Shown one piece after another: positions 4,799-52,461 of a stretch of 64,000 nucleotides of DNA (positions are counted from its first letter, which is position 1; each line of letters opens with the position of its first letter). The position numbers were made by a program, and so were the translations under genes. The notes beneath the pieces were generated by a model, which was not told the origin of the DNA, did not search any database, and saw only the letters and a program-made list of their open reading frames with translations. This DNA is from Podospora anserina (Eukaryota). The DNA lies in NCBI GenBank assembly GCA_017654855.1, contig CM030336.1:1426001-1490000 (forward strand). Reading direction: 5' to 3'.

Positions 4799-5434
4799 TG
4801 TTAATGTGTGGGTACTACTAAGTGCCCTACTTACTGCCCTACAGATTGATATTACAATGGGCAGTACTGCTATAAGCAGTAATGGAACTTCCCGGCTTGG
4901 ATCCCTTTAGAATGTTCTTTACAAGGGACCCTTGAAGGCTTACAGGGCTACTGTGGCCTGAGGCTTAGTTAATGGATACTAGAACCTTCCAAAGTAGCTA
5001 CAGGCTTACGTAGTAAGTTGCTACAATGGTGTGATTTACAGGGCACCTCTGCTACCGAAGGTTCTATGGATTTCCGTGAGTCTACACTAGACCCACCTAA
5101 GCCCACTAAATACCCCAAAGTGGTATAGGAGCTTCCAGGGCCTACAGGACCCATAGTAGGCCTACGAAGGCCTATATATAGACCTCTCCTCTCTCCTGTA
5201 GGATAGTTATCTTCTTTCTTTCCTTAAGGGCAAAAAGCTTAAGGCTAAGGCCAAAGGCCAAGGCCAAGGGTAATAAAGGCAATTCTTATTCCTTATACCT
5301 TACTGTATTACAGTGCTTTACCTTCCTTCGGCACTGCCGTCGTATCCTCCCGCTTCCGCTTGCGCACTGCTGTATTTTACAGCAACCCTATATAGGTTCT
5401 ATATTATAGGCCTATCAGGGCTTACCAGCTAACA
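4799..5434 (+). repeat. 5' LTR (TGTTA...TAACA, 636 bp)
   Basis: TG...CA termini with a short terminal inverted repeat; colinear with 10467-11102. Confidence 0.97.
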
Positions 5435-5448
5435 GGTTATAAGCCCGG
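5435..5448 (+). promoter_or_regulatory. primer-binding site, copia half-tRNAiMet type (GGTTATAAGCCC, RIP-mutated GGTTATGAGCCC)
   Basis: Directly follows the 5' LTR and resembles the GGTTATGRGCCC primer-binding site of copia-group elements. Confidence 0.75.
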
Positions 5449-8400
5449 GCAACCACCTAGCCCGGAATCTAGCCTACTTGTGCGCTTCCAGTCGACGTAC
5501 TTATAGCACTGTACTACAGGCTGTACGGCTTCTTACTAAGAAGCTTCTTTAGTGGAATTAGTGCTGTACTACAGACTTTCCACTGTTGTGATCACAACCC
5601 TAGGCCAATACCTTTAGGCCAATCGTCGACTTACAGCACTGTACTATAGGCTGTACGGCTTCCGAGAAGCTTACTCATTGACCTATACGGTTATTTCCAC
5701 CAAGTCCTCGCCTTTACTATAGCTAACCAGCCTATGGATCAAGACTACTTAGGTGTTATAGAGGCTACTAGCCCTATAGTACAGGCCTTACAGGCCCGTA
5801 TCGACACCATTGAGGATAAGCTTCGGCAGGTTATATCACTGCTTAAAGCTCAGGCTACCAAACAGCTAGTAGCTGTACCGGCCACCCACACTACCGAGCC
5901 TCCCGTGGCTCCAGCTGCTTCAGTACCTTCAGTATTTATTACAGAGTTTTTTACAGCGACCTTCAGCACACTTACTACAAAAGAGCTCGCTAAACAGTCC
6001 CTAAACCTCGCTAAACAATAGCGCCTTTCAGGACCCGATAATTACTAATAGTGGCACTAGGCTATTTCCATACAATTCAGGGCCCTTGGAATACCTAAAT
6101 TTCTAGAAAATCCTAATTCGGTAGACGCCCGGCTTTCTAACCTACAGAAGGCAGCCCTGCTATTAACCCTTAGAAATATACTAAAGGAAGGCCCGTTATC
6201 CACTATAGCCTTCGAAACCGACCCCGTTGTAGCCTATAAGCGCCTTCGCTTATAGTACGCTCCGGCGTAGCCTACCTTCCGAGACGAGCTATATAAGGCC
6301 TACCACCATTTGCAGTTCGATGGGTCTATACCTATCGTGGATTTTAACGCCCAATTTAACACCTACGTAAGTAGGCTCGGGGCCTTAAGCGTTGAAATAG
6401 CCTAAATCGACTAACTAAACCACTATTTTAATGTACTGGAAAACCATTTTCCACAGTGGGCCGAGCGCTGTAAAGGCCTACTTCGGTAGGAGCAATAGCT
6501 TTGCTATACAGAAGGCAAGCCTACTAGGCTAAGCCTTTTGTATTTCCAGGAAGACCTTTTAGCCGAAACCCGTAATTCGGTTACTTCCACTGCCTACTAA
6601 TTACAGGCCCTATAAGCTACCTACAAGCCTGTTAGTAGCGAAAAGAAGTCTAACTTTTAGGCTTCTCAAGCTCACCGGTCCTCACTAAATAAGGACCAAA
6701 AGCCCTATAAAAAACAGGGCAATAAGCAGTGGAAGAAAGGCCTGAAAAAGGACGACCGCTGTAACGACCGCTGTAACGGCCGCAAAGACGGCCGTAAGGA
6801 CAATCGCAAAGACGACCGCAAGGACCAAAAGGACCTACCCGTTACCGAGGCCTTTACTATAGGCTACGACCTTAACTCAAGTATTGTATTTGGAAGTAAT
6901 ATAACTGAAGAATATAGCGACTTAGGGCCTAATCCTCCCGAAGAACTGCTTAAATTTAGCCACTCAACCGCTACACCACGTACCTAGTGGCTCTTCGATA
7001 CAGGCTTTACAGTACACATCTGCAACAACAAAGCCTTATTTACTAACCTACAGTTCTCTTCTTCCCTGGGCTATATTAGTATAAGCGGTGGCCCAGTCAA
7101 GCCACAAGGCAAAGGCACTGTAGAAGTTGAATTCTTCAGTGGTTTTGAGGGCAAAAAAGCGGTATATACTACTGTAGCCCTTAAGGAGACCCTCTCTATT
7201 CCAGACTTTCCACTAAATATAGTTAGTAGTTATAGGCTCTACGCCTCTAGTGGGACCCTTCTTAAAGACTACCTATATTCGGCTTTTAGGAAGCTACTGG
7301 CCCTCCTTAACTTTAAGAAAAATAGGTTCTTTTTTACTACTAAAACCACGGTTCTAGCTAAAATAAAGCATTCAACGCTACAAGCATACGGCTCTATTTG
7401 GTGCTACAGCACTGAAGACAGCGATTCAGACCCTGAATTAACCACCATTACGCCTGAATTTCCAGCTACCACAGCGCCTACCACAGTACCTACCATAGCG
7501 CCTACCACAGCGCCTATCATAGCGCTTAAACCAATTACCACTATGGCGCCTACCCCTCGCCGTACAGGGCATTTGCCCTACCAACGTAACTAGGCGTTGA
7601 TTCAGGCTACAAAACTCTAGCACGTTCGATTAGGCTATATAAGCCTAGACCTTTTAAAGAAAACTGCCCTAATTACTAAGGGTATACCTAATTTACAGAA
7701 GGTACAGCCTACAGATCTAACCTGTAAGAGCTGTGACGCAGTTAAATTACTATATAAACCCTCTAAAAGGCCTGTAACGGACCTACCGTATACGCTAAGT
7801 CGAATAGAAGGGGATATATTTGTGATTCGACCCACCCCACTAAATAGCAGGCTTTACGGGCTTATTTTAGTGGACCGTAAGACCCGGTATAGGCTTATTA
7901 GGCTCCTAAAAACTAAAGATAAAGTCGCTATAGAGGCTCGCTCCGCTATAGAGAGCCTATATAATACTTATAAGCGGTACCCGGCATAATTCTACTACGA
8001 CGGGGGCAAAGAAATTCGAAGGCTATTACCCTACCTTACTAAAAAAGGTATAACCTTTAGTAAGTCTAGCCCATACACCTACCACCAAAACGGCCTAGCC
8101 GAGCGCTCTATTCGGGTAATTTTAAAGCGTCTACGGGCTACTATAGTAGCCTCTGGCCTACCACTTACCCTCTAATGCTACGTAATTAGCTCTATTATAG
8201 ATATTATTAACCGTATAGCCACTTCCACTAAGGAATTTACGCCCCACCAGTTATTTCTTAACGAATTGGTACCCTTACAGGCCCCTCACGTCCCTAACCT
8301 CGGACCTTACAGGGCTATAGGCACTAAAGTTTTAGTACTTATACCGCCTAAAAAACGTATTACCGTAAAGAAGTTAGAGCCTAAAACTACTAAAGGCAAG

Positions 8401-10466
8401 CTTTTAGCCGTACTAGGCAATAATATTTACTTAGTATAGTTAAGCTACCGGTAAGTAATTTAAACGCTATTCGTTAAACTATACGAAGATTATAGGCCTT
8501 ATTTAGAAGGACCTATAGCCTCTATATCGTAATTAAGGTTTCTAAAACTAAAAGATATCGAGCCTTCAGAAGGGGAACCCCCTATAATTACAGAAGGGGC
8601 ACCTACTGCAACAGCACCTCCTAGGCCTACACTTACGGCAATAGTACTTCCAAAGCCTACCAATATCGAAGTACTACTTCCGCAGGCTACTAAGTTACAG
8701 AAGGAGGAATTCGAAATAGTAAATAACAATACTATAGATACCACTACTCTAGTAAATTATTTTATTAACCAGGCTACTATAGCTATTACCTATAGCACTA
8801 CTTCTATTAGCATAGAACTTAGGACCTTTAAATAGGCCCTAAAGTACCCACTAAAGGACTAGTAGCTACAGGCTTCCTTTAGTAAGCTATAGTAGCTACT
8901 TAATTCCAAAACCTTTTACTTTATTAACTACTTATAGGCTCTAAAAAGGCCTATTATTAGCCGATGGGTCTATAAAGCTAAAAAGGATTTATAGGGCTAA
9001 ATTATTAAATTTAAGGCCCGGCTAGTAGTTAGAGGCTTCTAATAGGTGCCCGGAACCGATTTTACGGAGACCTTTATAGCTACTACAGCACTACCTACCT
9101 AGCGGGTTTTACTAGTTATTACAGTTAAAGAAGACCTAGAAATTAAGGAAATCGATTTCGTTAGGGCTTTTCTTAACGCTAGTATAGACTCCGATATATA
9201 TATAGAAGTCCCTAAAGGCTTATACGAATATAGCCTTAGTAGCTAAACCGCTATAGACCTTTTGAAATAATATTGCTGGGACCCTTCGAAGGACTAAGTT
9301 ATAATACTAAAAAGGTCCCTATACGGCCTAAAATAGGCCCCCTACCTGTGGCAATAAAAGGTTACGGCACTAACCAAAACCCTAGGCTATAGTCCACTAG
9401 TCTCAGACTCGGCTACCTACTATAACCCTCACAAAAGTATCTTTATAGTAAGCCACGTCGACGACTGCTTACTAATTGGACCCTCTATTACAGACATTTA
9501 GGCCCTGAAGCTATAGTTAGTTTAGGCCTACGATATAGAGGACTTAGGCCCTGCTAAGTTCTTTCTCGGGGTCCAAATTGAAAGAAATAGGCGTAAAAGG
9601 CTACTTTGGTTCCACCAAAAGGCCTATATCTAAGAGGCTGTTAAGCACTTCGAAGTTAGCACTTACGCACTTACCTTACCGCTCTCTCTAGGCCTTACAG
9701 GTCCCGAAACTCCCTTTGATCCACTAAATAAGGCCGACACTAAACTATATTAGAGCCTACTAGGCACTACTACCTACCTGATAACCCAAACCCGGGCCGA
9801 TATTGCCCACTCCGTTCAGTGGCTTTCACGGCACCTACAAGTACCTAAGGTAGCCTACCTAAAAGCAGCTAAAAAGCTGCTAAGCTACCTATATAGTACG
9901 ATGGACTTAGCTATATAGTTAGGAGGTACGGGTAGTATTGAGCCTATAGGCTATACCGATAGCGATTTTGTTAGCTGTAAAACCATTGCTCGGTCTACTT
10001 ACGGCTATTTATTTTTAGTGGGAGGTGGCCCTGTAAGCTGGAAATTTAAACGAGCGCCTACGGTTGCCTATAGTACCCTCGAGGCCGAATATACGGCCTT
10101 AATCGAAGGTAACCGGGAAGCCCTGTAGCTTAGAGGGCTATACAGTGAAATTTAGCGCTCTCTACGGAGCCCTACTCCCCTAAGGTGCGATAACCAAGGC
10201 GCTATAGAGACAGCCCACAACCCGAAGCACTATAACCGTATTAAGTACACGCTCCTTAAACTCCAGGGCGTTAAGGAGAGCGTTATAAAAAGAAATATTA
10301 CTATATCCTTCATACCTATAAAGGATATAGTAGCCGACGGCCTAATAAAGGCCCTACCAGCACCTAAGTTCCAGCGCTTTTTAGAGCTGATAAACTACCG
10401 GAAGCCTAGTATTTATAAGGGCCTTACGGCTTAGTAAGTGGGCACCTAGTACTCCCACAGAAGGGG

Positions 10467-11102
10467 TGTTAATGTGTGGGTACTACTAAGTACCCTACTT
10501 ACTGCCCTATAGATTGATATTACAATGGGTAGTACTGCTATAAGTAGTAATGGAACTTCCCGGCTTAGATCCCTTTAGAATGTTCTTTATAAAGGACCCT
10601 TGAAGGCTTATAGGGCTACTATGGCCTGAGGCTTAGTCAATGGATACTAGAACCTTCTAAAGTAGCTATAGGCTTACGTAGTAAGTTGCTACAATGGTGT
10701 GATTTACAGGGCACCTCTGCTACCGAAGGTTCTATGGATTTCCGTAAGTCTACACTAGACCCACCTAAGCCCACCAAATACCCTAAAGTGGTATAGGGGC
10801 TTCCAGAGCTTACAGGACCCACAGTAGGCCTACGAAGGCCTATATATAGACCTCTCCTCTCTCCTGTAGGATAGTTATCTTCTTTCTTTCCTTAAGGGCA
10901 AAAAGCTTAAGGCTAAGGCTAAAGGCTAAGGCCAAGGGTAATAAAGCTAATTCTTATTCCTTATACTTTACTGTATTATAGTGCTTTACCTTCCTTCGGC
11001 ACTGCCGTCGTATCTTCCCGCTTCCGCTTGCGCACTGCTGTATTTTACAGTAACCCTGTATAGGTTCTATATTATAGGCCTATTAGGGCTTACCAGCTAA
11101 TA
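10467..11102 (+). repeat. 3' LTR (636 bp; terminal CA mutated to TA), preceded by polypurine tract AGAAGGGG (10459-10466)
   Basis: Same length as the 5' LTR; the differences seen are almost all C/T or G/A transitions. Confidence 0.97.
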
Positions 11103-32955: not shown

Positions 32956-33717
32956 CGGGCGAGTGTCCCTTTTCTGTATCAAAATTCAAGATGAATGTGT
33001 ATTTTAGAGGCTTTTGTATGTACATGTAAAATAGGAACAAAATTGGCACACTTGCTGAAAGACAACAAAATAACAGCTCCTCAGGAGGCGTGATGTCAAC
33101 AAATCACTGTCGATAATGATTGTAGTCGTTGATATTGTCCTGGCAGCTGTTCGTCTCATCTTGCCGGGCTGTCAGCTGCCACCAGCCAAGACCATGACTA
33201 AGCCCCCCTCCCCCCAATGCGGCCCGAAATCTTCGCAGTATCCCCTTTCCAGCGAATTTCCCCTCACCAGGCACAAATCATCACCACGCACATTTCAGCA
33301 CAGCAGACACGTTCCCGTCACGTCACAGCCAACACCCTGCCGCCGCACTTCGGTCGTTCTCGTCACGCCACACCGGCATTCCCCCGTTGATTGGGCACGA
33401 ACCGGCCCGACATCCAGGAACACACCCACCCGTCCCTGAGTCGTGCTGTTCAGGTACCCCTCCAAACACTCTCTTCTGCTTTCCAGGTACGGGTGTTTCA
33501 ACTTTTGGGAATCTAGGTAGGAGAAGGAGGAGGAGGAGAACCGTTGTAGGAAGAGAAGAGGAAGACAATACAAGATGCATTTCTCACCATGACCATTCAC
33601 ATCTTATCCAAAAGTACCTCAACAGACGAACAGGATGCTAATAACTCACATCTGACCCGGCACAGACGGACGCTGCATTGAACACCGTCCGGACCGAACA
33701 TAGCCTGCCAAGAAGCA

Positions 33718-35304
33718 ATGCCGGCCATTCTGGAGGACCCAGCCGCCCCGACCATCTATCGTATCTCGGGCGACCCTCCGTATCCGGATCCCGCGAAGCC
33801 TACGGTCCCGGCCTCTATTGTCCCTCGCCATGTGACACTTAGAGACCGGCAGACCGAGGCCACCGTCATTCCGTTTGCATCCCGGGATGAGGTACCCGAG
33901 TCATTGCTGCGCTATCTCAGCGACCAGTTCAGCAAAGAGATCGAGGGCGGTGATACCTACCCCATGATGGAGCCCATGTCGTTTGACAAGTTTGCTGCCT
34001 ACTGGTTCCAGAACTTTGCCGGTATCATGCTGCTGGGCAACATTGAAAGCGCTGCCGATGTGATCGAGGGTAAAGACTGGTCCAAGGAGTGCCTTGGCAC
34101 TTTCTACATCAAGCCCAACTACCCCGGCCGCAGCAGCCACATCTGCAACGCGGGCTTCATCGTCACTGATGCCTCCCGCAACCGTGGTGTTGGTCGGCTG
34201 ATGGGCGAGACGTACCTCGAGTGGGCTCCCCAACTGGGCTACAAGTACTCCGTCTTCAACCTCGTCTACGAGACCAACGTGGCCTCGTGCAAGATTTGGG
34301 ACGCCCTCGGCTTCAAGCGGATCGGCCGGGTCAAGGGCGCCGGCAACCTCAAGAGCCACCCGGACCGGCTGGTGGACGCCATCATCTACGGGCGCGACCT
34401 GGGCGACGCGGCGGGCGGCGCGGGCAACGAGGAACTTGTGAGTGAAGAGCGTTTCGACAAGATCAAGTTCTACCTCAAATACGGCCGCTATCCGAACGGC
34501 GCTGACCGAGCCGAGAAAAGCAGACTCCGTAGCGCGGCGACACACTACAAGCTCCTGGAGGGCGACGTCTTGATGCTCAAGGATAAAGAGGTCATCTCGG
34601 ACCCGCAGCGGCAGTACGAGATTGCGCGGACGGTGCACAACCAGGCCCACGCCGGCATCAACAAGACGACGGCGACCATTGCGGAGCGGTACCACTGGAG
34701 CCGGATCAAGGAGACGGTGTCGGATGTAATTAGGAACTGTACAGAATGCAAAGAGCTGGGGAAGCCATCATCATCATCATCAGCTGCTGCTGCCGCTGCC
34801 GCTGCCGCTGCTTCACAGTCTTCGCAAACAACAGCTGCCCAACCATCACCTGCTCTTGCCGCCGTCAACGGCATAAAACGACCCAGTTCTGTAACACTAC
34901 CTGGAGCTCCCAATCCTAAACGGTCGTCTCCCAGTCCCACTGCTACAGCTGTCGTCGTGGCCGCCCCGTCTTCTTCCTCAACAACAACACTACAGCAGCA
35001 GCCAAGGCCACCAATACCCGACCCGCCCCACTTGGGGCCGTTTACCGTGCCAAGGCAACAACAACAACCTCACCCACCACCGCAGTATACCGATCCGACG
35101 ACGATATCGCTTTTATCATCAGCCAGTCACAGTCACGGAATCGACACGGGTTCGGGTCCTAGTGTTGATGCGGCCATGGGGGGGGCTGGGCATCATGATG
35201 CCCACCATCAGCACCACCATCCACATCACCATGTGCAAGTGACGGATGTGTACCAGCCTATTGATCCGCAGATTATACAATCTTCTTTGCACCACCATCA
35301 TCAT

Positions 35305-35335
<31 letters not shown>

Positions 35336-35685
35336 AGCATCACGATGACGGTTTGGTGCACCCGGGGTATTTATTAGGGGATGTGCACCACCCGCATCAT
35401 CATCATCAGGAGCATGATGAGACGGATGCGTTTCAGGCGTTGATTAACGCTGGGGCGGAAGAGGAGGAGGTGGAGGAGGAAGAGGTTGTGGGCAGGAGGA
35501 CGAGGGAGGAGGTGGAGGAGGCGGTGGATAGGGATTTGGAGATGTTGATTGAGGAGCCGGTTGAGGAGGAGGATGAAGGAAAGGGGAGAGGGGGGAAGGA
35601 GGAGGGGAGTTTGAGTCCTAAGGGGGAGGTGCCAGCTACGCCTGTGCCGACCGAGGTCGGGGATGAGGGGGGGAGGGTTGGGTAG
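33718..35685 (+). CDS. SPT10: Spt10-like GNAT acetyltransferase with H2C2 zinc-binding domain and low-complexity tail
   Basis: GNAT motifs LGTFYIKPNYPGRSSHICNAGF, RNRGVGRLMG and FNLVYETNVAS; H2C2 motif HNQAHAGINKT..YHW..CTEC; poly-A/H/Q/E tail. Confidence 0.85.
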
Positions 35686-42978: not shown

Positions 42979-44117
<1,139 letters not shown>

Positions 44118-44456
44118 TTGCCCAACATCAACAAAAAGAAGGCGAAACATGGGACTGGGACGGAAAAGCATTGAGCTAGGAACGGGGCTGTGACTGATTT
44201 TCTTCATCGGCGTTTATGTACCTTTAGATAGGGGGGCATATTCTGGCTCTGACATGGCGAGGAAATGCGATTTGGGATGCGACATGATCACGATATCTCG
44301 GCTCTTTGATAGAGAGTTCCCCGTCATCGTCTGCGTTGTGGTTCTGGAAAGGGTCGCAAGGTAGCAAATCCTAACCCCATCCCCATGATTCTTTTCGTTC
44401 ATTATATTTGGGTGTCTCTGTGCTTGTCTGTTTTATTTGTCTTGTCCTGTGTTACC

Positions 44457-45873
44457 TTACAGCCCATTCCTCAAGTTATCGTACTTGGTATCCGGATAGG
44501 TGACGCAGTTCTCCTTGTACTGCAACGCTCCTGGCCCACCAAAGGTGTCAACCACGTTGGCGATCAGACTTTCGGGCCCTTCCTTATCAGCTGAACTCTC
44601 CCACCACATGCCACCACCCAAGCCCCTGTCTACGACATACTGCGCCTTTCTTCTAGCCAAGGGAACAGTATCATAGCTCACCATGGTCCTCGTCCCGGGG
44701 TGGTAGCAGTAGCTCGCGCCCGCCTCATGATCATACCTCTCCTCCGACCCCTCCAATGGCAACTTCTTGTAATCATGCACACCATTCTCCCACGTCCCCT
44801 CGCCCACACCACTGTAGGGACCGCCGGGGCCGTCAGTCTGCTGAAAGGCCCTCCCGTACAGTGGCATCCCCAGCACGATCTTGCCCGGATGGACACCCTG
44901 ACTGACATAATGGCTCACCGCGGCGTCGGTGCTAAAAGGGGTAGACTGCGGGTTGTGAGGGGAGGGGAAGAGGTTGGCCTGGTGGCCGGCGGTGGAGTCC
45001 CACGATCCGGCGTAGTCGTAGGCCATCAGGTTCCAAAAGTCGAGGTACCTGTCCATTCCGGGGAGGTCCATATTCTGGAGGTTTTGGAAGCCGGCGGGAG
45101 AAGCGACGGTGAGTTCGAAGTGGGGTCGGGAGGGGAGGGTGGAGGAGTAGGCGTCGAGGTGGGAGCGGAGGGTGGAGAGGAGGGAGACGAGGTGGGAGGC
45201 TTCGGTTTGGGAGGAGGGGTATTCCCAGTCTATGTCTAGGCCGTCGAAGCCCATGTTTTTGAGCTGGGGGAGGGTGTTAGAGGGGGTTTGGGTAAAGGGC
45301 GTGGAGTGATTAAGGGGGGCTTACAAGGTCAACGGCGGTGCGCGCGAAATTCTCACGGCCCTCCGGGGTGGAGGCGGGCTGTTTAAAATTGGAGGAGTAG
45401 GTCCATCCTCCGATTGACAAGAGGACTTTGAGATTGCGGTTCCGGGACTTGAGGATGTTGAGCTGCTTGAGGCAGCCGTAGAGGTTGGTGCCCGAGTCGT
45501 TCCAGGAGTCGCCTTCCCAGTGGATGTCGGTGTCGGCCCAGGTGTCGGTGAGGTAGACCTCTCCCGACTCGGGGCGGACGTTGGCGAAGGCGTAGAGGAT
45601 GTGGGTGAGGTTCTGGACGGGGAGGTCTTGCGGGCGGTGCTTGCGGCCGTAGATGGCCCAGTTGACGAAGTAGGCTACGCTGCGGTAGCCGGGGGTGACT
45701 GGTCCGCCGCCCATCTTGGGAGAGTCTTGTTGGATGGGGGACGTTGTTGGGTTGGTGAAGATGGTCTTGGAGAGGAGAACGGCGGCGCTCAGGAGGAGGA
45801 CAGTTAAGGAGGTGGCTATCAAGATGGGGGACCGGCGGGAACGGGAGGTTTGAGGTGTTCCAGAAGACGGCAT
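44457..45873 (-). CDS. GH18 chitinase (fungal subgroup A), one intron
   Basis: [22 protein letters not shown], catalytic [21 protein letters not shown] and LGGGMWWE. N-terminal hydrophobic segment; alternative start MGGGP at 45714. Confidence 0.95.
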
Positions 45874-46871
45874 ATGGGGGAGGTTATATAACAGTAAGCC
45901 GCTTTGGGGGGTCGGCGGTTTGTTTGTCTCTGCTGCGGAACGGATAGGAATGCCGGGGCCGAGAGGGAGCTGATGGCGGAGACCAACTTGGCAACCAACC
46001 CAAGGAGAGGGGCCCGGCTGTGTTCTTTTATTACAGCGGCGGCGGCACGGGGGTTACAAGGAAAGCTACGCACTTGAGACGCCACTTGACGCGTACTGCT
46101 TATGGGTTCAACGGCACGAATGGTTAACAGAGATGCCACGCAATTCCAGGTGGGATTTTTGATCAGTTTCCAGGGCTCTTCAACCAAGCAAGTTGGGCGG
46201 GGAGAGACCCTGATGTCATGTCACGACGCTTGAGCTGAGGTGCCAGAGCCAATGGTCTCGGGGCCCTGTCAGGCGGGGCTGTCTAGCTTGATTGGTGGGG
46301 TCTGTGGCTGAAGAGCAGGGCAGCTTAGGTGCCCTGGCTCTTGGCAGCGGCCTCCATCAATCATCAATCATCAATCACAGAACAACAACTTCTCCATCAA
46401 ATATGTGAAAAACAAAATGGCCAAATCATGGTATTACAGTAGTACGCCCAAACGCCATTCTCCCGCCATTTTACCTACCTAACCTATACTCTTACCACGT
46501 CGGGAGATGTGACAAGGGCTGTATTACAGGGCTTGGAACAGTAGTTCAATTGCAGTAATAATCTTCAATGGCCTCGAAGTCCATGATGAAGAAGAGAAGA
46601 AGAAACTTGGAGTAGTACAGTGATCCTGAACGCGTATTTATCTCCCATCAAGCGGTCCGTGCCTCCTTAGCCTTAGGCCGCTGCCAAGTCCTTCAATATA
46701 TCACTGGGCCAGCAGCATTCCCGCCATGCCTTTCATTGACTGCTTCACTTTCAACAAATGGCTCACAACGTGCAGGTTGCCGGCGACTGGGCCGTGATGT
46801 GGCCGGTTGGTTGTTGGCCGTGTGACATTATCTCCCTCCTTCTCATGCTCGCCCACGAGCTCTGAATGCCT

Positions 46872-48602
46872 TCAAGCCTCCACTCGGGAGTCCTTGGGTT
46901 TGCGGGGTTGCTGTGCGTGAAAGGTGCGGACAGCTGCCTTGGCTCCGTCGCTGTAGAAGTGCTCAAAGGGTTCCCAGGTCCAATGTCTCCTCTGAGGCCA
47001 TCCTTCCCACTTGACCAGATACTTGACTTCATCACCCATCAAGGTCGAGTCCATCACCTTTTCCACTTGATAGTCTTCTGCCTCGACTGGCGCCGCTTCT
47101 CGCAGGACCTGGTCTACATCAGGCAGTGCCTGACCGCCAGCGCGATAGGGCTCGGCGTGCACTTTCGGCTTGTTCCCCAAATTGCCAAGTGAGTATCCGA
47201 GGATATCCTCCATCTCCTCGTCGGTGTCAGTTGGCGAGCTAAGAGTTGAGTCAGAGGAGTAGCCAGCATCGCCAACTATTTCAATAAGCTCCTGCTGTTC
47301 AAGCGCCTCTTGAACACCAGAAACATAGCTCCTTGAAGCCTGTCTGTCGATCCGCTGGCGTTTCCTGATACCAGAGGACACCTTTGATAAGCTGGCCGGT
47401 GAATATGTGGCAAGTTTGCCTCTAGTCCGTCTGTGTCTTGGACCTGACCTCGAGGTGGCCCCTGGCCTCAAAGGTGACGGCCTAAAGGGATCTGGCCTCC
47501 CGGGATCTGGCGTTACGGGTCTCTCTGGTGTCGAAGGAGGAGAGGAGAGGGGCGAATCTGAGTCACTGTCCAGTGGAAGCTCGCGTTTCTGGTCCAGCGG
47601 AAGGACGGGGAGAGCACGTGTACGTGGCTTGTTGGTCGCCGTATCCGCATGGCCCTCGGCTTTGTGCGCAATGGGATAGAGGTTGCAACGACACTGCATT
47701 TTGAATTTGTCGAAATAGCTTCGTCCGTAGTTGACGTATATCTCATGCCCCTCCTCGATTGGCCTGAGGGCTTTGAAAGCCAAGACTCTGATGCCGCCGA
47801 TGGTCTCAGGGCTGCACGCGACGTTGGGGCGGCAGTGGTGGTTGATAAACCGGGTCCAGTTGCCGTACATTCCCGCATCAATGTTGTATGGGTACTCGCC
47901 GATATGGTCGTCCATTTCGTAAACGTAGGCGCTGTTGGGCACGTGTTCGCTGTCGTGTTTACATATCATACCGTAATAGATGCCAATGATTTCATCTTGC
48001 TCCACATCACGACCGGGCTTCATGAAGGCGCCATAGCCCCGGTCCGGCGTCATGCGGATGGCGATATGATCTTTAGCCCACTCGGCCAACTGGTCTCGGA
48101 AGGGGGCGTAACAAGTGTATTGGTTGCACTCTTCGCTATCTGGTCTGTACCAGCTGTGGCACACCAAACACGTAAACGCATAATAGTGTTCCCCAAAGGG
48201 CGACATCAAACGACTGATACCATCGGACAGATAGTCGGCGTTGGCTCTGCGAATCCGAGTGGCGAGGGTGGGCACGCGCAAATCAAAGTCGGTGTACTTG
48301 ACGAGGTAATCTCTAATCTCGTACACCTCGCGATCTTCGAGGGGGCTTGTGGATTGATAATCTTGACTAGTGATTTGGAAGAGCTTGGGAAACTTGGTGG
48401 GATCTGAGTGGAAACCAAGGGGCATAAGGCTGAGCATGAATTGATAATCCTCCTCTGACATATTGTTATTGACGAAACCAGCACGCAACATAGCCGCCTC
48501 TCGTATAGCGCGCGTTTGCCGCGGAGACGTGTCTGCCGGCCCTGACGTGTTTGTAGGCGGCTGATACACTTCATCGTCGTCGCTGTTGTTGTTGCGAGGC
48601 AT
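46872..48602 (-). CDS. SET-domain lysine methyltransferase-like protein with C-terminal chromodomain, intronless, 576 aa
   Basis: SET motifs RGYGAF, IGIYYG, IDAGMYGNWTRFINHHCRPN and EIYVNYGRSYF, then CRC. Chromodomain DYQVEKVMDS..KYLVKWEGW..WTWEPFEHF..AVRTFH..PRKPKD. Confidence 0.9.
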   Translation of the reverse strand: MPRNNNSDDDEVYQPPTNTSGPADTSPRQTRAIREAAMLRAGFVNNNMSEEDYQFMLSLMPLGFHSDPTKFPKLFQITSQDYQSTSPLEDREVYEIRDYLVKYTDFDLRVPTLATRIRRANADYLSDGISRLMSPFGEHYYAFTCLVCHSWYRPDSEECNQYTCYAPFRDQLAEWAKDHIAIRMTPDRGYGAFMKPGRDVEQDEIIGIYYGMICKHDSEHVPNSAYVYEMDDHIGEYPYNIDAGMYGNWTRFINHHCRPNVACSPETIGGIRVLAFKALRPIEEGHEIYVNYGRSYFDKFKMQCRCNLYPIAHKAEGHADTATNKPRTRALPVLPLDQKRELPLDSDSDSPLSSPPSTPERPVTPDPGRPDPFRPSPLRPGATSRSGPRHRRTRGKLATYSPASLSKVSSGIRKRQRIDRQASRSYVSGVQEALEQQELIEIVGDAGYSSDSTLSSPTDTDEEMEDILGYSLGNLGNKPKVHAEPYRAGGQALPDVDQVLREAAPVEAEDYQVEKVMDSTLMGDEVKYLVKWEGWPQRRHWTWEPFEHFYSDGAKAAVRTFHAQQPRKPKDSRVEA

Positions 48603-49310
48603 CGTGAATGATTAGGGATCTATAGTGTGTCGATACTAATAATTGTACAGATACCTGATCTTGTACAAGTCTGAAGCTGCTATATGTCCGATTTCGAAAG
48701 GTTCAATGGACAGGACTGAAATTCTCCAGGAATTCCCAGATGGAACCTGGTTTGACTATGCTGATATTGAAGGCGAAACTGCTGGGTCATAGACATGGAG
48801 TCTTCATCTTGAATGACCGACGGAAACGGAAGGGTTATGTAGCCGTCTCTATCTCTTTGTTTGAGGTCTGCATCGAGTTCACAATGCATTCATTTCTACA
48901 GGAAAACATAAAGGGGTTCCCGCGGGATGCACATGGATAAAGAGAACCGAGATACATCTAGAGACAAAGGCTTCCACTTTTGGTCTGGTTCATAGGACCA
49001 TGAAGTCTTCAAATACGTTTAGCGGAGTTCTGTTTCTACTCTGCTCTGTAGGTGTAAGGTACATTGAGCACGCAGTCGAGTCAAGCAATTGGTATTCGGC
49101 ATTTCACCACTGCTGAGTTACCGTGAGATCACCCCTGAACATCCCCTGACTTATCGACTACGTACATAGGTACGTATCTATATCTGGGAACACTCTGCGC
49201 TAGTACCCCCATGATATCCTTAACTCGCAGGTCTTGGAAAAGTAGTACAATCTTTTCTCTCCTCGTACAAGTACTCACACCTTTCTCCTCTGTCCTCTCC
49301 CAATCAAACC

Positions 49311-49841
49311 CTACCAAAAGCTCCAGCACCCTCCACAACCCCTTTTCCTCCCTCTCCCCTTATTGACGGCCCCTAATTCCTCCTCCAACGCCAAACTCTC
49401 CTTCTCACCCCCCACATCTTGATGTGAACGAGCAGGGCTGAAAATCGTAACAGCCTTCTTCCCTCTCAAACGAGGCTCATCAGAAGTATGCTTGTCAAAA
49501 TGTGCCGTAGGAGGTTGCTGAATCTCAATCTGTATGCTCTCCCTCTTTAGAATCCTGACCTGTGTTGCCTCCTCCTGCCTTGCCGTTGAAATTTCCGTGC
49601 TGCTAGTACTGTTTCTTGACTCAGACGTGACAGTCGGTGGTGGCGGTGGTTCGAGCGTGATGGACGACGAGGCGGTTCTGTTTTCTGTGACTGGTGGAGG
49701 AGGTGGTAAAACAGCAGCCCGAGGGCGAGGGGTATATCCCATCATGAGCGACATCAGGCTTGGTGGAGATGCCAGGTCGTTGTTTTCTGCATAGGAGGAG
49801 GCCATTGTTGGACTTGGAGATGGAATTTTTTCGGATGGCAT
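49311..49841 (-). CDS. low-complexity hypothetical protein
   Basis: 176-codon ATG-initiated ORF, rich in P/S/T; no recognisable domain. Confidence 0.35.
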   Translation of the reverse strand: MPSEKIPSPSPTMASSYAENNDLASPPSLMSLMMGYTPRPRAAVLPPPPPVTENRTASSSITLEPPPPPTVTSESRNSTSSTEISTARQEEATQVRILKRESIQIEIQQPPTAHFDKHTSDEPRLRGKKAVTIFSPARSHQDVGGEKESLALEEELGAVNKGRGRKRGCGGCWSFW

Positions 49842-50997
49842 GGGAGAATGTTCACATGGTACGGTTGGAAAAAGAAAAGGTTGAAGATGATCTGATCACC
49901 AAACATCCAAGCGCGCGGGAAATTTCTCAAAGATGGAAATCTCCGCCCTCGTGAGGGAGTCCGATCCGAGGCATGATCAGAACACACCACATCCCAACCC
50001 CTCAGGCTGGGCAAAGAAGTACAGGTGCCCAACCGAACCGACCCGAAGGGGCGTTGCTGCAGGGCCGAGGTTTAAACGCGTGTTTTGACAGGAGACAGGT
50101 CATGGGGTGTATATGCAGCAGGATAAATTACCCCTTTTTTGGGGGGGCGAGTGGCATTCCCCCACTGCAATACCGACCGGCTGTTTACAACATTGGCGCC
50201 TGAAGAAAATCAACATGGAGATCAACGGCATGCTCCGGTGAAGAGAAATTCTGAAGAGGGTTGTGTTTCTCCTTGACATTTGTCTTTGAGATCTGTCTTT
50301 GTTCGAGTCTCGGGACGCATTGTCTTAAATATCCGCAAAAGGCTTCAAAACCCATGCAAAGTTTCGAGGAACATAACAAAGGAAAAGGACTCTTTCATGT
50401 TGTGAATGAACTGCAGCCTGCGTTTACAATGGGGCTGGAGTCGACTAGACCGGAATAAGAGGCTCTGGCTTTAGGGATTCCCGAGGACCTGGTAACGATT
50501 GGGATAATGTCATAAGTCTTCAATTGATCGATATGTAGCGCGGAAGTATGTCAGCAAAATGGCAGCTTGAATTATTACTTCAGTCCTGTCACGGTAAGAG
50601 TCTCCGGCTAGGTATGTCTTATGCGCTTGATGTTTCAACGTGGACGTCCTCTTTCGCTCGGCTCCGAGTTCCCCGAATACAGTTAGAACTTCAATTGCAC
50701 GATGGAAGCTTCCATCAGTGCGGTCGAGGACGTTCCGTAATTATGGCTAGGCAATCCACAGTTGTGTTACTTGGTTGGTGGAAAAGTTTGGAAACAAATA
50801 AACCCGGTAAAGGGGAAAGTCGGGTTGGGTTGTGGTGTTGGAGAACAATACTACCCTCGTGGATATCTTAGCGTTAGTGAAACATACCAACCATACTCAT
50901 ATAGATCACTATAAAATCAAATCATCCTCACCATCCAGGCCTTAACCATGATGTTCGACACTTGAGGCTCAAGTGCCTCCCTCACCCCTCCAGCACC

Positions 50998-52461
50998 ATG
51001 GCACCCTCCTTCCTCCACTTCGCCACAGGCATAGCCCTCCTTACAACCACCGCCCACGCCGACCTCACCACCACCATCGATGCAACCTCCAACCGCGGCA
51101 CCTGGGAAGGCTGGGGCACCTCCCTAGCCTGGTGGGCAGCCACCTTCGGTCACCGCGACGACCTAGCAGACATCTTCTTCACCCTCCGCACAACCCCCCA
51201 CCAATCCGTCCCCCTCCCCGGCCTAGGCTTCACAATCGCCCGCTACAACCTCGGTGCCACAACCACCAAAACCACCATCCCCCCTTCCACCTCCATGAAA
51301 ACCTCCCCCTCCATCATCCCCTCCCGCCTCATCCAAGGCTTCTGGCTCGACTGGACCTCCTCCCTTCCAACCTCCCCATCATGGAACTGGTCCGCCGACC
51401 CAAACCAACGCTCCATGCTCCTCAAAGCCTCCTCCCGCGGCGCCACCACCCTCGAGCTCTTCTCCAACTCCCCAATCTGGTGGATGTGCAAAAACCACAA
51501 CCCCTCCGGTTCCGACGACGGCAGATCCGACAACCTCCAATCATGGAACTATCAAAACCATGCTGTCTACCTGGCCACAGTGGCGAAATACGCAGCAGAA
51601 AACTGGGGGGTGAGCTTCACATCAATAGACCCATTCAACGAGCCGTCAGCAAACTGGTGGAACGGCAAGACCGGCACGCAAGAAGGCTGCCACTTCGACG
51701 CCTCCACCCAGATCGCCGTGGTGGGGTATCTAAGGCAGGAACTGGACAATCGGGGGTTGAAAGGGGTGGTTATTTCCGCCTCGGACGAGAGCCATTACGA
51801 CGAGGCGGTTGAGACGCTCAGGAAATTCGAGGGCAACAGGACTGTGATGGAGGCAGTGGGGAGGGTGAATGTGCATGGGTATCAGTATGAAAAGGGAAGG
51901 AGGGATGTGCTGTTTGATATGGTGAACAAGGCGGGGAAGAAGCTTTGGCAGAGTGAATATGGGGAGGCGGATGCTACCGGGGAGAGGTTGGTGAGTAATT
52001 TGCTGCTGGATATGCGGTGGTTGAGGCCGATGGCGTGGGTGTACTGGCAGGTTTTGGATGGGGGTGGGTGGGGTTTGATTGACGCGGATAATGACAGGAA
52101 GACGATCGGGCAGGTGAACCAGAAGTATTTTGTTCTCGCGCAGTTTGCGAGGCATATCAGGCCGGGGATGAGGATTTTGGATGGGGGGAGTGATTACGCT
52201 GTTGCGGCTTATGATGAGAAGGCGAGGAAGCTGGTGATTGTGGCTGTTAACTGGGGGGAGGCCCAGTATATCAATTTTGATCTGGGGAGGTTTGGAGCCG
52301 TTGGGTCGAATGGATCGGTGGTCAAGAGGTGGGCGACACAGATTGGGAGTGGCAGTCGTTATGTTGAGTACAGTGATACTCAGCTTAGTGGGAAGAAGTT
52401 CTGGTCAAGATTTGAAAAGAAGATGGTCCAGACTTTTGAAGCGACGGGTGTTGTTCTGTAG
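50998..52461 (+). CDS. secreted GH30 endo-beta-1,6-galactanase-like glycoside hydrolase
   Basis: Signal peptide MAPSFLHFATGIALLTTTAHA; WEGWGTSLAWWA; ARYNLG; acid/base PFNEP; NVHGY; nucleophile LWQSEYG; YFVLAQFARHIRPG. Confidence 0.9.
   Translation: MAPSFLHFATGIALLTTTAHADLTTTIDATSNRGTWEGWGTSLAWWAATFGHRDDLADIFFTLRTTPHQSVPLPGLGFTIARYNLGATTTKTTIPPSTSMKTSPSIIPSRLIQGFWLDWTSSLPTSPSWNWSADPNQRSMLLKASSRGATTLELFSNSPIWWMCKNHNPSGSDDGRSDNLQSWNYQNHAVYLATVAKYAAENWGVSFTSIDPFNEPSANWWNGKTGTQEGCHFDASTQIAVVGYLRQELDNRGLKGVVISASDESHYDEAVETLRKFEGNRTVMEAVGRVNVHGYQYEKGRRDVLFDMVNKAGKKLWQSEYGEADATGERLVSNLLLDMRWLRPMAWVYWQVLDGGGWGLIDADNDRKTIGQVNQKYFVLAQFARHIRPGMRILDGGSDYAVAAYDEKARKLVIVAVNWGEAQYINFDLGRFGAVGSNGSVVKRWATQIGSGSRYVEYSDTQLSGKKFWSRFEKKMVQTFEATGVVL

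What the first reader, a model, noticed from the sequence alone, without database searches (positions are those of the whole stretch)
46872..48602. SET domain with a C-terminal chromodomain: a reversed reader-writer architecture
Seen: one intronless ORF has a small Cys cluster (CLVCH..C...C), a SET domain with intact RFINHxCxPN and EIxVNYG motifs, a short CRC post-SET, a ~200-aa disordered linker and a terminal chromodomain. The three aromatic-cage positions are occupied (DYQV, VKW, EGW). Known: Clr4/SUV39 have the chromodomain N-terminal to SET, and Neurospora DIM-5 has none. The tail FH...PxKP resembles chromodomains at the end of Gypsy chromovirus integrases. Inference: a lineage-specific methyltransferase that may have captured a retroelement-type chromodomain and could both read and write methyl-lysine, for example a self-propagating heterochromatin or anti-silencing factor. 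I do not recognise a characterised fungal enzyme with this order.
Basis: partly seen in the sequence, partly recalled or inferred. Interest (0 to 1): 0.8.

Follow-up and report, generated by a model that had tools for sequence, protein, structure and literature searches.

The report
SET enzyme with captured retrotransposon chromodomain
A Podospora gene for a lysine-methyltransferase-like enzyme has acquired at its tail the chromatin-reading module from the end of a Gypsy retrotransposon, giving a writer-then-reader protein seen so far only in this small group of fungi.

Summary
Window 46872-48602 (minus strand) is one 576-aa ORF with a Pfam SET domain (aa 198-293) and a C-terminal chromodomain (aa 511-562), joined by a ~180-aa disordered linker. 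It is the ortholog of uncharacterised Podospora anserina Pa_5_3300.

- Residues 484-576 are 49-70% identical to the last ~90 residues of Ty3/Gypsy (chromovirus) pol proteins. All 19 non-self hits carry integrase or RT domains.
- The homology runs from the end of the integrase SH3-like domain to the native pol C-terminus.
- The tail nests inside integrase chromodomains in a tree.
- A polypurine tract plus TGTCAC (the LTR start in related elements) lies 27 nt after the stop codon.

Outgroup orthologs (Triangularia, Cercophora) are SET-only and end where the pol-derived part begins. The aromatic cage (Y511, W532, W535) and the SET catalytic motifs are intact. RNA-derived contigs bridge the junction, but they carry no strand information and a spliced antisense RNA overlaps the 3' end.

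Two species of the complex carry a frameshift that removes the tail. Function as a heterochromatin-tethered methyltransferase is inferred, not shown. I rate it a new variant of a known kind (SETMAR-like capture of a transposon domain).

The parts
46872..48602 (-). Whole CDS (576 codons plus TGA at 46872-46874); ortholog of P. anserina Pa_5_3300 / PODANS_5_3300
48186..48425 (-). N-terminal conserved region (aa 60-139). It is shared with the Triangularia orthologs, confidently folded from about aa 70, and has no Pfam family
   Evidence: only orthologs hit it; pLDDT 78-91 for aa 71-140; 52 for aa 61-70
48111..48170 (-). Four-Cys mini-cluster C145, C148, C159, C164, conserved in the fungal SET-only family (a probable single Zn site; not a Pre-SET domain)
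   Evidence: no Pre-SET Pfam hit
47724..48011 (-). SET domain (Pfam aa 198-293) with RGYGAF (GxG), IYYG, NWTRFINHHCRPN and EIYVNYG (Y292)
   Evidence: (alignment to EHMT1)
47664..47693 (-). Variant post-SET C304-x-C306-x3-P310-x2-H313 (family consensus C.C.....PH.P) in place of the canonical CxCx4C
47154..47663 (-). Disordered linker (aa 314-483). It includes the variable PDPGR 15-nt repeat (about 47481-47510), basic NLS-like patches R389-K396 and R413-R417 (47352-47438), the ancestral C-terminal motif DEEMED (aa 461-466, 47205-47222) and 17 junction residues (aa 467-483, 47154-47204)
   Evidence: 15-nt insertion behind 47486 in 4 of 4 runs
46875..47153 (-). Segment derived from the 3' end of a Ty3/Gypsy pol ORF (aa 484-576): integrase linker, chromodomain and the native pol C-terminal tail
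46917..47072 (-). Chromodomain proper (Pfam aa 511-562); cage Y511, W532, W535; TWEP
46822..46844 (-). Polypurine-tract-like run of 14 purines, then TAA, then TGTCAC, 27 nt after the stop: a putative PPT and first bases of the donor's 3' LTR
   Evidence: the only occurrence in 64 kb on both strands; shuffles give 0.19; TGTCAC is the LTR start in L003 and L031
47189..47254 (+). 66-nt intron of an antisense RNA (GTGAGT...CTAAG...AG), removed in one RNA contig
   Evidence: (X5)
46924..46977 (+). 54-nt antisense intron (GTGCGG...CAG) inside the chromodomain codons; weakly supported
   Evidence: (X5 and X7; shorter side only 26 nt)

Best explanation
Pa_5_3300 is a host gene of a fungal-specific SET-only lysine-methyltransferase family. 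In the ancestor of the Podospora anserina species complex, its reading frame was extended by the last ~93 codons of a Ty3/Gypsy chromovirus pol ORF. A Gypsy element (or a fragment of one) came to lie at the gene's 3' end. The ancestral stop, a few codons after DEEMED, was lost. The frame now runs through 17 junction codons into the integrase linker and chromodomain, and ends at or very near the element's own stop. The element's polypurine tract and LTR start still follow (shown by sequence comparison). The product is a writer-then-reader protein: a catalytically intact-looking SET core, a disordered linker with NLS-like basic patches, and a group-I chromoviral chromodomain with a complete aromatic cage. 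By analogy with the MAGGY integrase chromodomain, which binds H3K9me2/3, the tail most likely tethers the enzyme to methyl-lysine-marked, TE-rich heterochromatin, where the SET domain methylates a histone or chromatin-bound substrate (inferred, untested).
For: Capture (shown):
(1) aa 471-576 hit only Gypsy proteins apart from the gene's own cluster. 4 of 4 hits in the near-length search carry rve + SH3_Tf2-1 (51-65% id). 15 of 15 hits in the longer search carry RVT_1, RNaseH, rve, SH3_Tf2-1 and Chromo (49-70% id). P0179 is a complete gag-pol with the chromodomain at its end.
(2) The alignment starts at EPYR, the end of the integrase SH3-like domain, and runs to the pol C-terminus. tblastn finds only 47153-46881 in the window, with no RT or integrase core beside it.
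(3) Tree: the six Podospora tails form one clade (100/97*) inside a 54-row clade (100/97*) that holds 28 integrase-linked rows, 4 Gypsy loci and 16 short rows of unknown context, and 0 of the 18 non-integrase chromodomain rows.
(4) Solved HP1/CBX chromodomains score only 24-35 bits, against 89-143 bits for element tails.
(5) The motif 'purine run of 9 or more, 0-5 nt, TGTCAC' occurs once in 64 kb, 27 nt after this stop (shuffle mean 0.19). In 80 Gypsy loci, 7 of the 9 plus-strand occurrences lie within 600 nt after pol. In the 2 of 7 tested loci with a direct upstream copy in the fetched stretch, that copy starts exactly at TGTCAC.
(6) Outgroup orthologs T. setosa, T. verruculosa and C. samala are SET-only and end 1-11 residues after DEEMED.

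Functional integrity:
- SET motifs align with EHMT1, including an NHHC motif that matches except for one flanking residue (RFINHHCRPN against RFINHHCEPN) and the catalytic Tyr.
- Foldseek's best matches are EHMT1, G9a, Clr4, ASH1L, NSD and Set2.
- The cage Y511/W532/W535 and TWEP are present.
- The tail keeps the element majority residue at 32 of 35 columns that are at least 90% conserved in 16 element tails; the 3 misses are aa 479-481, before the clear homology.
- Within the complex, the tail varies at 4 of 93 columns, against 20 of 170 in the linker (Fisher p = 0.046) and 10 of 174 in the SET core.
- A 1635-nt contig from a run that also holds spliced GH18 RNA spans from 72 nt upstream of the ATG to 99 nt past the junction. 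A 665-nt contig overlapping it by 9 nt continues through the stop and the PPT. No sense-orientation splice joint lies in the ORF.

Literature: group-I chromoviral chromodomains keep the three aromatic residues, and the MAGGY chromodomain binds H3K9me2/3 (passages of PMC3350952, citing Gao et al. 2008, which I did not read).
Against: - No binding, activity or localisation data exist for this protein or its SET-only family.
- The post-SET is non-canonical (CxC...PH instead of CxCx4C) and there is no Pre-SET domain, so the substrate cannot be assigned.
- The P. bellae-mahoneyi and P. pseudoanserina models end in the +2 frame of the window's DNA after codon ~386. This frameshift removes the NLS-like patches and the chromodomain, so the tail, or the whole gene, is dispensable there.
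- The species complex is very young. The low variability of the tail is only marginally different from the linker (p = 0.046) and not different from the rest of the protein (p = 0.28).
- Contigs carry no strand. Two plus-strand GT..AG joints show that at least part of the RNA over the 3' half is antisense. The runs are only guessed to be RNA, and no single contig covers the whole ORF; two studies have a contig end at 47055.
- The donor element and its LTR were not found, so the LTR remnant rests on 23 nt.
- Outgroup endings rest on annotated models whose DNA I could not inspect.
- The third cage residue is Trp, as in CBX7/Polycomb-type domains, so H3K9me versus H3K27me specificity is open.
Confidence: 0.6

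Rival explanations
1. A recent, effectively neutral chimera. The Gypsy fragment was read through by accident and the fused tail is expressed, but it contributes nothing that selection sees. It looks intact only because the event is young, and it is already being lost.
For: Two of the seven species-level gene models in the cluster (the cluster's seventh member, P0172, is an unnamed Logan sequence; the window adds an eighth sequence) carry a frameshift that removes the tail. The complex is so young that 43 of 576 columns vary in all. The tail-versus-rest variability difference is not significant (p = 0.28). An antisense spliced RNA overlaps the tail.
Against: From residue 484 on, all 32 columns conserved in the elements are retained, despite about 30% divergence from the nearest known elements. 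The chromodomain core varies at 1 of 52 columns, against 11.8% in the linker. The cage is complete. The frame is open in 6 of 8 sequences.
Confidence: 0.25
2. The tail is functional, but not as a tether for histone methylation. For example, it could act as a decoy that competes with chromoviral integrases for heterochromatic nucleosomes, or the SET domain could act on non-histone proteins or be catalytically silent.
For: The chromodomain comes from the integrase targeting module. The SET-only family is uncharacterised and has a non-canonical post-SET. In the same species another SET protein, het-Va, is thought to act on non-histone targets (passages of PMC9262711).
Against: The SET core is closest by sequence and fold to the histone methyltransferases EHMT1, G9a, Clr4, ASH1L and NSD; no SMYD/SETD6-type chain is among the rows shown. 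The catalytic motifs are intact.
Confidence: 0.1
3. SET followed by chromo is the ancestral architecture of this gene, and the Triangularia/Cercophora lineages lost the tail. Alternatively, the chromoviruses took the domain from this gene.
For: Outgroup endings rest on gene models only. The tree is unrooted within the 54-row clade and the sister of the Podospora tails is unresolved.
Against: The homology includes integrase-specific flanks on both sides of the chromodomain and ends at the pol C-terminus. A PPT/LTR-start motif follows the stop. The tail type is widespread in complete elements from many sources, whereas the SET fusion is confined to one species complex. 131 SET-family relatives were recognised among 173 fetched proteins, and none outside the complex has a C-terminal chromodomain.
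Confidence: 0.03
4. Annotation or assembly artefact: two separate genes, or a gene plus a TE relic, that only appear as one ORF.
For: No single RNA contig covers the whole ORF, and contig ends fall at 47055-47063 in two studies.
Against: The ORF is uninterrupted in the window and in five other independent sequences. A contig bridges SET, the linker and the junction. There is no start codon context or promoter-sized gap between the parts, and no sense-strand splice joint was seen.
Confidence: 0.02

Closest known systems
SETMAR (primate SET gene fused to an Hsmar1 mariner transposase)
   Same: A host SET-domain gene gained a C-terminal domain by reading into a transposable element at its 3' end. 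The fusion is lineage-restricted and the TE supplies a chromatin/DNA-targeting module. (Cordaux et al. 2006, known to me through the citation and text in bioRxiv 10.1101/2021.11.30.470311, section 10.)
   Different: Here the donor is an LTR retrotransposon, not a DNA transposon. Only ~93 residues (a histone-reader domain, not a transposase or DNA-binding domain) were taken. No intron is involved, and no TE-type Pfam domain remains, so screens that look for RT, integrase or transposase domains would miss it.
Chromoviral (Ty3/Gypsy) integrase chromodomain, group I, e.g. MAGGY
   Same: Direct homology: 49-70% identity, the same flanks, the three aromatic residues and TWE. The MAGGY domain binds H3K9me2/3 and directs integration to heterochromatin (passages of PMC3350952).
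   Different: It is detached from integrase, RT and the LTR pair, single-copy, and attached to a host enzyme. MAGGY itself was not compared here.
Clr4 / SUV39 (KMT1) H3K9 methyltransferases
   Same: Chromodomain plus SET in one polypeptide, i.e. reader-writer logic. The SET fold is among the best Foldseek matches (Clr4 9isz_A, 6bp4_A).
   Different: The order is reversed (chromo is N-terminal in Clr4-type P0143). There is no Pre-SET Zn3Cys9 domain and no canonical post-SET. The chromodomain has an independent, retroelement origin. P. anserina's own KMT1 is a different gene, Pa_6_990 (passages of PMC8105982).
EHMT1/GLP and EHMT2/G9a catalytic domains
   Same: Best sequence match (51.9 bits, E 3.9e-13) and best structural match (E 1.1e-11), with a near-identical RFINHHC.PN motif.
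   Different: Only about 21% identity, TM about 0.5, no ankyrin repeats, and a different Zn-cluster arrangement. This is similarity of class, not orthology.
Bdelloid rotifer N4CMT (DNA methyltransferase with a C-terminal CBX-type chromodomain)
   Same: A modifying enzyme that gained a C-terminal chromodomain thought to guide it to H3K9/K27-methylated chromatin (passages of PMC8885841).
   Different: The enzyme class differs (DNA N4-cytosine methyltransferase of bacterial origin), the chromodomain is of the host CBX type, and the kingdom differs.

Membership tests
SET-domain lysine methyltransferases (Pfam PF00856) | SET fold and profile match above the curated cut-off | tested here: met
   60.3 bits against a cut-off of 22.4; pLDDT above 90 over most of aa 141-310; Foldseek probability 1.00 to EHMT1, G9a and Clr4
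SET-domain lysine methyltransferases (Pfam PF00856) | Cofactor and catalytic motifs: GxG, YxG, NHxC, and the Tyr of the ELxF/YDY motif | tested here: met
   RGYGAF, IYYG, RFINHHCRPN and EIYVNYG align to the EHMT1 motifs. The role of each motif is recalled knowledge
SET-domain lysine methyltransferases (Pfam PF00856) | Methyltransferase activity on a defined lysine | not testable with these tools
   No assay possible; the substrate is unknown
SUV39/Clr4/DIM-5 (KMT1) | Pre-SET Zn3Cys9 domain (PF05033) | tested here: not met
   No Pre-SET hit at E up to 1, and only four Cys upstream of SET; the Clr4-type P0143 scores 70 bits for Pre-SET
SUV39/Clr4/DIM-5 (KMT1) | Canonical post-SET CxCx4C | tested here: not met
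   The sequence is C304-R-C306-NLYPIA-H313; the family consensus is C.C.....PH.P
SUV39/Clr4/DIM-5 (KMT1) | Chromodomain, when present, is N-terminal and of the host type | tested here: not met
   It is C-terminal and nests among integrase chromodomains
Group-I chromoviral integrase chromodomain | Three aromatic cage residues and the TWE motif | tested here: met
   Y511, W532, W535 and TWEP; the definition comes from passages of PMC3350952
Group-I chromoviral integrase chromodomain | Closest relatives and phylogenetic position lie among integrase-borne chromodomains, with homologous flanks | tested here: met
   19 of 19 non-self hits are integrase/pol; flanks align from EPYR to the pol C-terminus; the 54-row clade has 100/97* support
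Group-I chromoviral integrase chromodomain | Binding of H3K9me2/3 | not testable with these tools
   Inferred from MAGGY only
Intact or active Ty3/Gypsy element | gag, PR, RT, RNaseH, integrase and two LTRs | tested here: not met
   tblastn with complete polyproteins hits only 47153-46881 at this locus; the downstream DNA has no second copy in the window
Host-TE chimeric (domesticated) gene, SETMAR-like | The host part has orthologs that lack the TE part | tested here: met
   T. setosa, T. verruculosa and C. samala orthologs are SET-only and end 1-11 aa after DEEMED. These are gene models only; their DNA was not seen
Host-TE chimeric (domesticated) gene, SETMAR-like | One sense transcript joins both parts | tested here: inconclusive
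   A contig bridges SET to 99 nt past the junction, but contigs carry no strand, an antisense spliced RNA exists, and the runs are only guessed to be RNA
Host-TE chimeric (domesticated) gene, SETMAR-like | Purifying selection on the captured part | tested here: inconclusive
   32 of 35 element-conserved columns are kept; 4 of 93 variable columns against 20 of 170 in the linker, p = 0.046, but p = 0.28 against the rest; frameshift in two species; no DNA available for dN/dS

The most novel reading that the evidence does not exclude
The host has turned a retrotransposon's own heterochromatin-homing device against, or alongside, the elements. The exapted chromoviral chromodomain delivers a SET methyltransferase to the H3K9me3/H3K27me3-marked, TE- and RIP-rich chromatin where chromoviruses integrate. 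That would create a de novo reader-writer loop, or an integrase competitor, that arose within the last few million years in a genetically tractable fungus. The frameshifted species would serve as natural loss-of-tail controls.
Probability: 0.25. Interest if true: 0.8.

Novelty: new variant of a known kind. Interest (0 to 1): 0.62.

Why it matters
Capture of transposon domains by host genes is known, with SETMAR as the classic case. Chromoviral chromodomains are known to target heterochromatin. A host chromatin-modifying enzyme that has taken over a chromoviral chromodomain, with the polypurine tract and LTR start still visible after the stop, does not appear in the papers my searches returned. 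It would also be invisible to surveys that look for RT, integrase or transposase domains (method as described in 10.1101/2021.11.30.470311).

It is a very young, cleanly delimited example of how a reader-writer architecture can be assembled. It sits in Podospora anserina, where knockouts, H3K9me3/H3K27me3 ChIP-seq and kmt1/kmt6 mutants already exist (PMC8105982, passages). Sister species carry a natural truncation. That makes the question "what does adding a reader to a writer do?" directly testable.

Tried and rejected
- **The look-up of sequencing runs:** unreachable six times and answered on the seventh identical request. No RNA holder is listed as such; all candidates are "RNA? (a guess)".
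- **Stretches without cover:** for example 48680-49380 in X1, and the contig ends at 46334-46414 in four studies. These are not used as evidence. They might mark the mRNA 3' end inside the LTR remnant, but no DNA run was laid for comparison.
- **Polypurine run alone:** not significant. There are 49 runs of 14 nt or more in 64 kb. Only the composite PPT+TGTCAC motif and its position are informative.
- **LTR remnant elsewhere in the window:** none found. The 998 nt downstream have no other copy beyond 14-16 nt.
- **Possible LTR end:** a single GTGACA lies 604 nt into the putative LTR (window about 46224). That is within chance expectation and is only a lead.
- **Metagenome Gypsy loci:** at most about 52% identical to P0182 and 34-45% to the tail. 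They are too distant to align LTRs and were used only for layout.
- **LTR-flanked element at 4799-10766:** it carries a Pol_BBD remnant (recalled as Copia-type) and has no Gypsy-pol hit, so it does not look like the donor.
- **N-terminal chromo-like similarity:** a weak match of the chromodomain to aa 77-109 (EVYEIRDYLVKY; tblastn E = 2.8) was rejected as chance. The model shows only two very short strands and helices there, not a chromodomain.
- **Census limits:** one search lists only the best 150 of 1997 hits, so a distant SET-then-chromo protein below that rank cannot be excluded. No domain-architecture database was available.
- **Supplementary files:** Expression tables of P. anserina RNA-seq papers may bear on whether the gene is expressed.
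Full report
**1. The observation**

The window holds one uninterrupted ORF at 46872-48602 on the minus strand, 576 codons plus TGA. Pfam places a SET domain at aa 198-293 (60.3 bits, cut-off 22.4) and a chromodomain at aa 511-562 (35.8 bits, cut-off 25.1). Aligned to HP1alpha/CBX5 and CBX7, the three cage positions are Y511, W532 and W535, followed by TWEP.

An AlphaFold2 model built on a 68-sequence alignment is confident for aa 70-310 and 511-576. The chromodomain shows three strands and a helix. Most of aa 312-494 has pLDDT below 50, so there is a ~180-residue disordered linker.

**2. Identity and distribution**

The protein is 97% identical to a P. pseudocomata protein. Apart from one fewer PDPGR unit, it is identical to P. 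anserina S mat+ PODANS_5_3300, i.e. Pa_5_3300. [quoted passage not shown] The P. anserina heterochromatin paper names Pa_6_990 (PaKmt1) and Pa_1_6940 (PaKmt6) as the H3K9 and H3K27 methyltransferases and does not mention this gene (PMC8105982, passages).

The 90% cluster holds seven sequences. The SET-chromo form is present in P. anserina, P. comata, P. pseudocomata, P. pseudopauciseta and one unnamed Logan sequence. The P. pseudoanserina and P. bellae-mahoneyi models, flagged "LOW QUALITY PROTEIN", stop after about aa 386.

An exhaustive phmmer search of 1.84 billion representatives gave 1997 hits at E up to 1e-3. Among the best 150, no protein matched both the SET and the chromo regions of the query. 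A local BLAST of the four parts of the query against all 173 proteins fetched by then found 131 with the SET part and 41 with the chromo part. Only the five Podospora orthologs and P0143 had both. P0143 has the classical Chromo-PreSET-SET order.

The nearest non-Podospora relatives are Triangularia setosa (492 aa), T. verruculosa (511 aa) and Cercophora samala (258-aa model). All are SET-only by Pfam and end 1-11 residues after a shared DEEMED motif (P0001 aa 461-466).

**3. Origin of the tail**

One search drew its search words from the first 500 residues only, so I searched aa 471-576 separately.
- Among proteins of similar length, the 4 non-self hits all carry rve + SH3_Tf2-1 + Chromo, and all four also Integrase_H2C2 (51-65% identity).
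- Among longer proteins, 15 of 15 hits are Ty3/Gypsy polyproteins with RVT_1, RNaseH, Integrase_H2C2, rve, SH3_Tf2-1 and a terminal Chromo (49-70% identity).
- P0179 is a complete gag-pol of 1729 aa with the chromodomain at aa 1663-1715.
- Of ten chromo-region hits scanned with Pfam, four carried integrase-type domains, four were short or had Chromo only, and two were multi-chromodomain proteins.

An alignment of the tails shows that homology starts at EPYR (P0001 aa 484-487), the last residues of the integrase SH3-like domain. It then continues through the linker, the chromodomain and the C-terminal FH..P.KP.D.R motif to the end of pol. P0001 stops within a few residues of where the elements stop.

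In the window, tblastn with integrase tails and complete polyproteins hits only 47153-46881. No RT or integrase core lies beside it.

A maximum-likelihood tree was built from 85 chromodomain rows over 81 columns, so many forks are unresolved. It puts the six Podospora tails in one clade (100/97*). That clade lies inside a 54-row clade (100/97*) made of 28 integrase-linked rows, 4 Gypsy loci and 16 short rows of unknown context. None of the 18 non-integrase rows falls in it. The outgroup was not monophyletic: P0143 and the two P0010 rows fall among more distant Gypsy loci. The immediate sister of the Podospora tails is unresolved. Solved HP1/CBX chromodomains score only 24-35 bits, against 89-143 bits for element tails.

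**4. A remnant of the element's 3' end**

On the coding strand, 27 nt after the stop, lies a 14-nt purine run, then TAA, then TGTCAC (46844-46822). Purine runs alone are common: 49 of 14 nt or more in the window. The composite motif (purine run of 9 or more, 0-5 nt, TGTCAC) occurs only once in 64 kb on both strands. The mean was 0.19 per window in 300 block shuffles.

In 80 Gypsy loci fetched from metagenomes, the motif occurs 9 times on the coding strand, and 7 of those lie within 600 nt after the pol match. Of those 7 loci, 2 (L003, L031) had a direct second copy in the fetched stretch, and in both that copy begins exactly at TGTCAC. One (L059) had an inverted copy, and 4 had no second copy. 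So TGTCAC is the LTR start in this group, and the window retains what looks like the donor's polypurine tract and first LTR bases.

The rest of the LTR could not be delimited. The donor was not available, the downstream DNA has no copy elsewhere in the window, and a GTGACA 604 nt further on is within chance.

**5. The SET part**

By sequence, the best solved relatives are EHMT1/GLP (51.9 bits, E 3.9e-13), then EHMT2/G9a, KMT2A, NSD2, NSD1, ASH1L and EZH2. 142 distinct sequences scored E up to 0.01, of which 60 were shown. By fold, the best are EHMT1, G9a, Clr4, ASH1L, NSD3, Set2 and NSD1 (probability 1.00, TM about 0.5 on the target length).

The alignment to EHMT1 shows the GxG, YxG and NHHC motifs and the catalytic Tyr in place. 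There is no Pre-SET domain. The post-SET is a family-specific C.C.....PH.P, conserved in the fungal SET-only family. ESM-Atlas neighbours are uncharacterised Ascomycota "SET domain-containing protein" clusters (a lead only). The enzyme class is therefore histone-KMT-like, but the substrate cannot be assigned.

From the sequence I read two basic patches in the linker (R389-K396 and R413-R417) as a possible bipartite NLS. This is inference.

**6. Constraint and loss**

At 35 alignment columns that are at least 90% conserved among 16 element tails, P0001 keeps the majority residue in 32. The three misses are aa 479-481, upstream of the clear homology. Genuine elements score 41 of 41 to 45 of 54 in a leave-one-out version of the same test.

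Among the six full-length sequences, variable columns are:
- 9 of 139 in the N-terminal part
- 10 of 174 in the SET core
- 20 of 170 in the linker
- 4 of 93 in the pol-derived tail
- 1 of 52 in the chromodomain core

The tail differs from the linker at p = 0.046, but not from the rest of the protein (p = 0.28) or from the SET core (p = 0.78).

Against strong constraint: the tails of the two truncated models (...SRSKTQTD* and ...SRSKKQTD*) match the +2 frame of the window's DNA after codon ~386. Those species therefore carry, or were assembled with, a frameshift that removes the NLS-like patches and the chromodomain.

**7. Transcription**

No run is on record as RNA. Fourteen are guessed to be RNA. 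I laid four of them, from four studies, on 44000-51000.

All four skip the 61-nt intron of the neighbouring GH18 gene (45263 to 45325, CT..AC on the plus strand), so they contain spliced RNA.

Over the SET-chromo gene, X1 has a 1635-nt contig at 47055-48674. It runs from 72 nt upstream of the ATG, through SET and the linker, to 99 nt past the junction at 47153. X1 also has a 665-nt contig at 46399-47063 that overlaps the first by 9 nt and covers the chromodomain, the stop and the PPT/LTR-start. No joint with sense orientation lies within the ORF.

Two joints have plus-strand GT..AG ends. The first is 47189-47254 (66 nt, GTGAGT ... CTAAG ... AG, in X5). The second is 46924-46977 (54 nt, in X5 and X7, with only 26 nt on the shorter side). 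An antisense spliced RNA therefore overlaps the 3' half of the gene. Because contigs carry no strand, the share of sense mRNA is unknown.

All four runs carry the extra 15-nt PDPGR unit of the S strain.

**8. Interpretation**

*Shown:* a lineage-restricted SET gene whose last 93 codons, stop and immediate 3' flank derive from the 3' end of a chromovirus.

*Inferred:* the tail works as it does in integrases, as a methyl-lysine reader that homes to heterochromatin. This rests on the MAGGY precedent (passages of PMC3350952). It would turn the SET enzyme into a heterochromatin-tethered writer.

Rivals are a young, neutral read-through that is already being lost; a non-histone or decoy role; an ancestral architecture; and an artefact. 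The last two are poorly supported.

**9. Comparison and novelty**

The closest analogue is SETMAR (described in 10.1101/2021.11.30.470311, section 10 read). The same text reports 823 chromatin-TE fusion models, found through TE-type domains; this gene has no such domain. The mammalian chromovirus-derived domesticated genes listed in the passages I read are mostly gag-derived (PMC3670739, passages). N4CMT shows that a C-terminal chromodomain can guide a modifying enzyme (PMC8885841, passages).

None of my searches returned a host SET enzyme carrying a chromoviral chromodomain. These searches cover open-access full text only.

I rate it a new variant of a known kind, interest 0.62.

Noticed in passing
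window 33682-35685 (+): A 667-aa stop-to-stop ORF combines a GNAT acetyltransferase domain (aa 135-211, 25.9 bits) with an integrase-type H2C2 zinc finger (zf-H2C2 63.7 bits, Integrase_H2C2 47.2 bits). It may be a second host-enzyme plus retroelement-domain chimera in the same window. It explains the weak Gypsy-pol tblastn hits at 34195-34767.
   Followed up: partly
window 46924-46977 and 47189-47254 (+): Two small plus-strand GT..AG introns are removed in RNA contigs. This indicates a spliced antisense RNA over the chromodomain-coding end and the junction of the SET-chromo gene.
   Followed up: partly
window about 47481-47510 (-), linker codons about 365-374: A 15-nt PDPGR minisatellite varies in copy number between strains and species: one unit fewer in the window than in S mat+, and up to three more units in P. 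pseudoanserina. All four RNA runs carry the extra unit.
   Followed up: partly
P0168 (P. pseudoanserina) and P0169 (P. bellae-mahoneyi), equivalent to window codon about 386: Both models switch to the +2 frame and stop five codons later, so they lose the chromodomain. This is a natural tail-less allele or an assembly error, and it needs read-level confirmation.
   Followed up: partly
window 4799-5098 and 10467-10766: A 300-nt direct repeat pair (96% identical, 5668 nt apart) lies in the low-GC region (0.37-0.45) and flanks a degraded element with a Pol_BBD remnant (recalled as Copia-type). It is probably a RIP-affected LTR retrotransposon.
   Followed up: partly
window 14860-15058: An array of degenerate short repeats built on the motif TATCCCAGCTTAAA, with 22-44 nt spacing, lies just downstream of an M20-peptidase ORF.
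   Followed up: no
P0064, P0073, P0082 (Xylaria longipes, X. acuta, X. curta proteins): These annotated proteins of 202-306 aa have the same chromoviral-type chromodomain at their C-terminus and no other Pfam domain. They could be TE fragments called as genes, or further host captures.
   Followed up: no
window 45850: T in the window is read as G in the three runs that cover it (X1, X6, X7), in the 5' end of the GH18 gene. This is a strain difference between the window and the RNA-run strain.
   Followed up: no
window 44457-46053 (-), 50905-52461 (+): The neighbours are ordinary genes: a GH18 chitinase with a confirmed 61-nt intron immediately downstream, and a GH30-like hydrolase upstream. 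The SET-chromo gene is not embedded in a TE island.
   Followed up: yes
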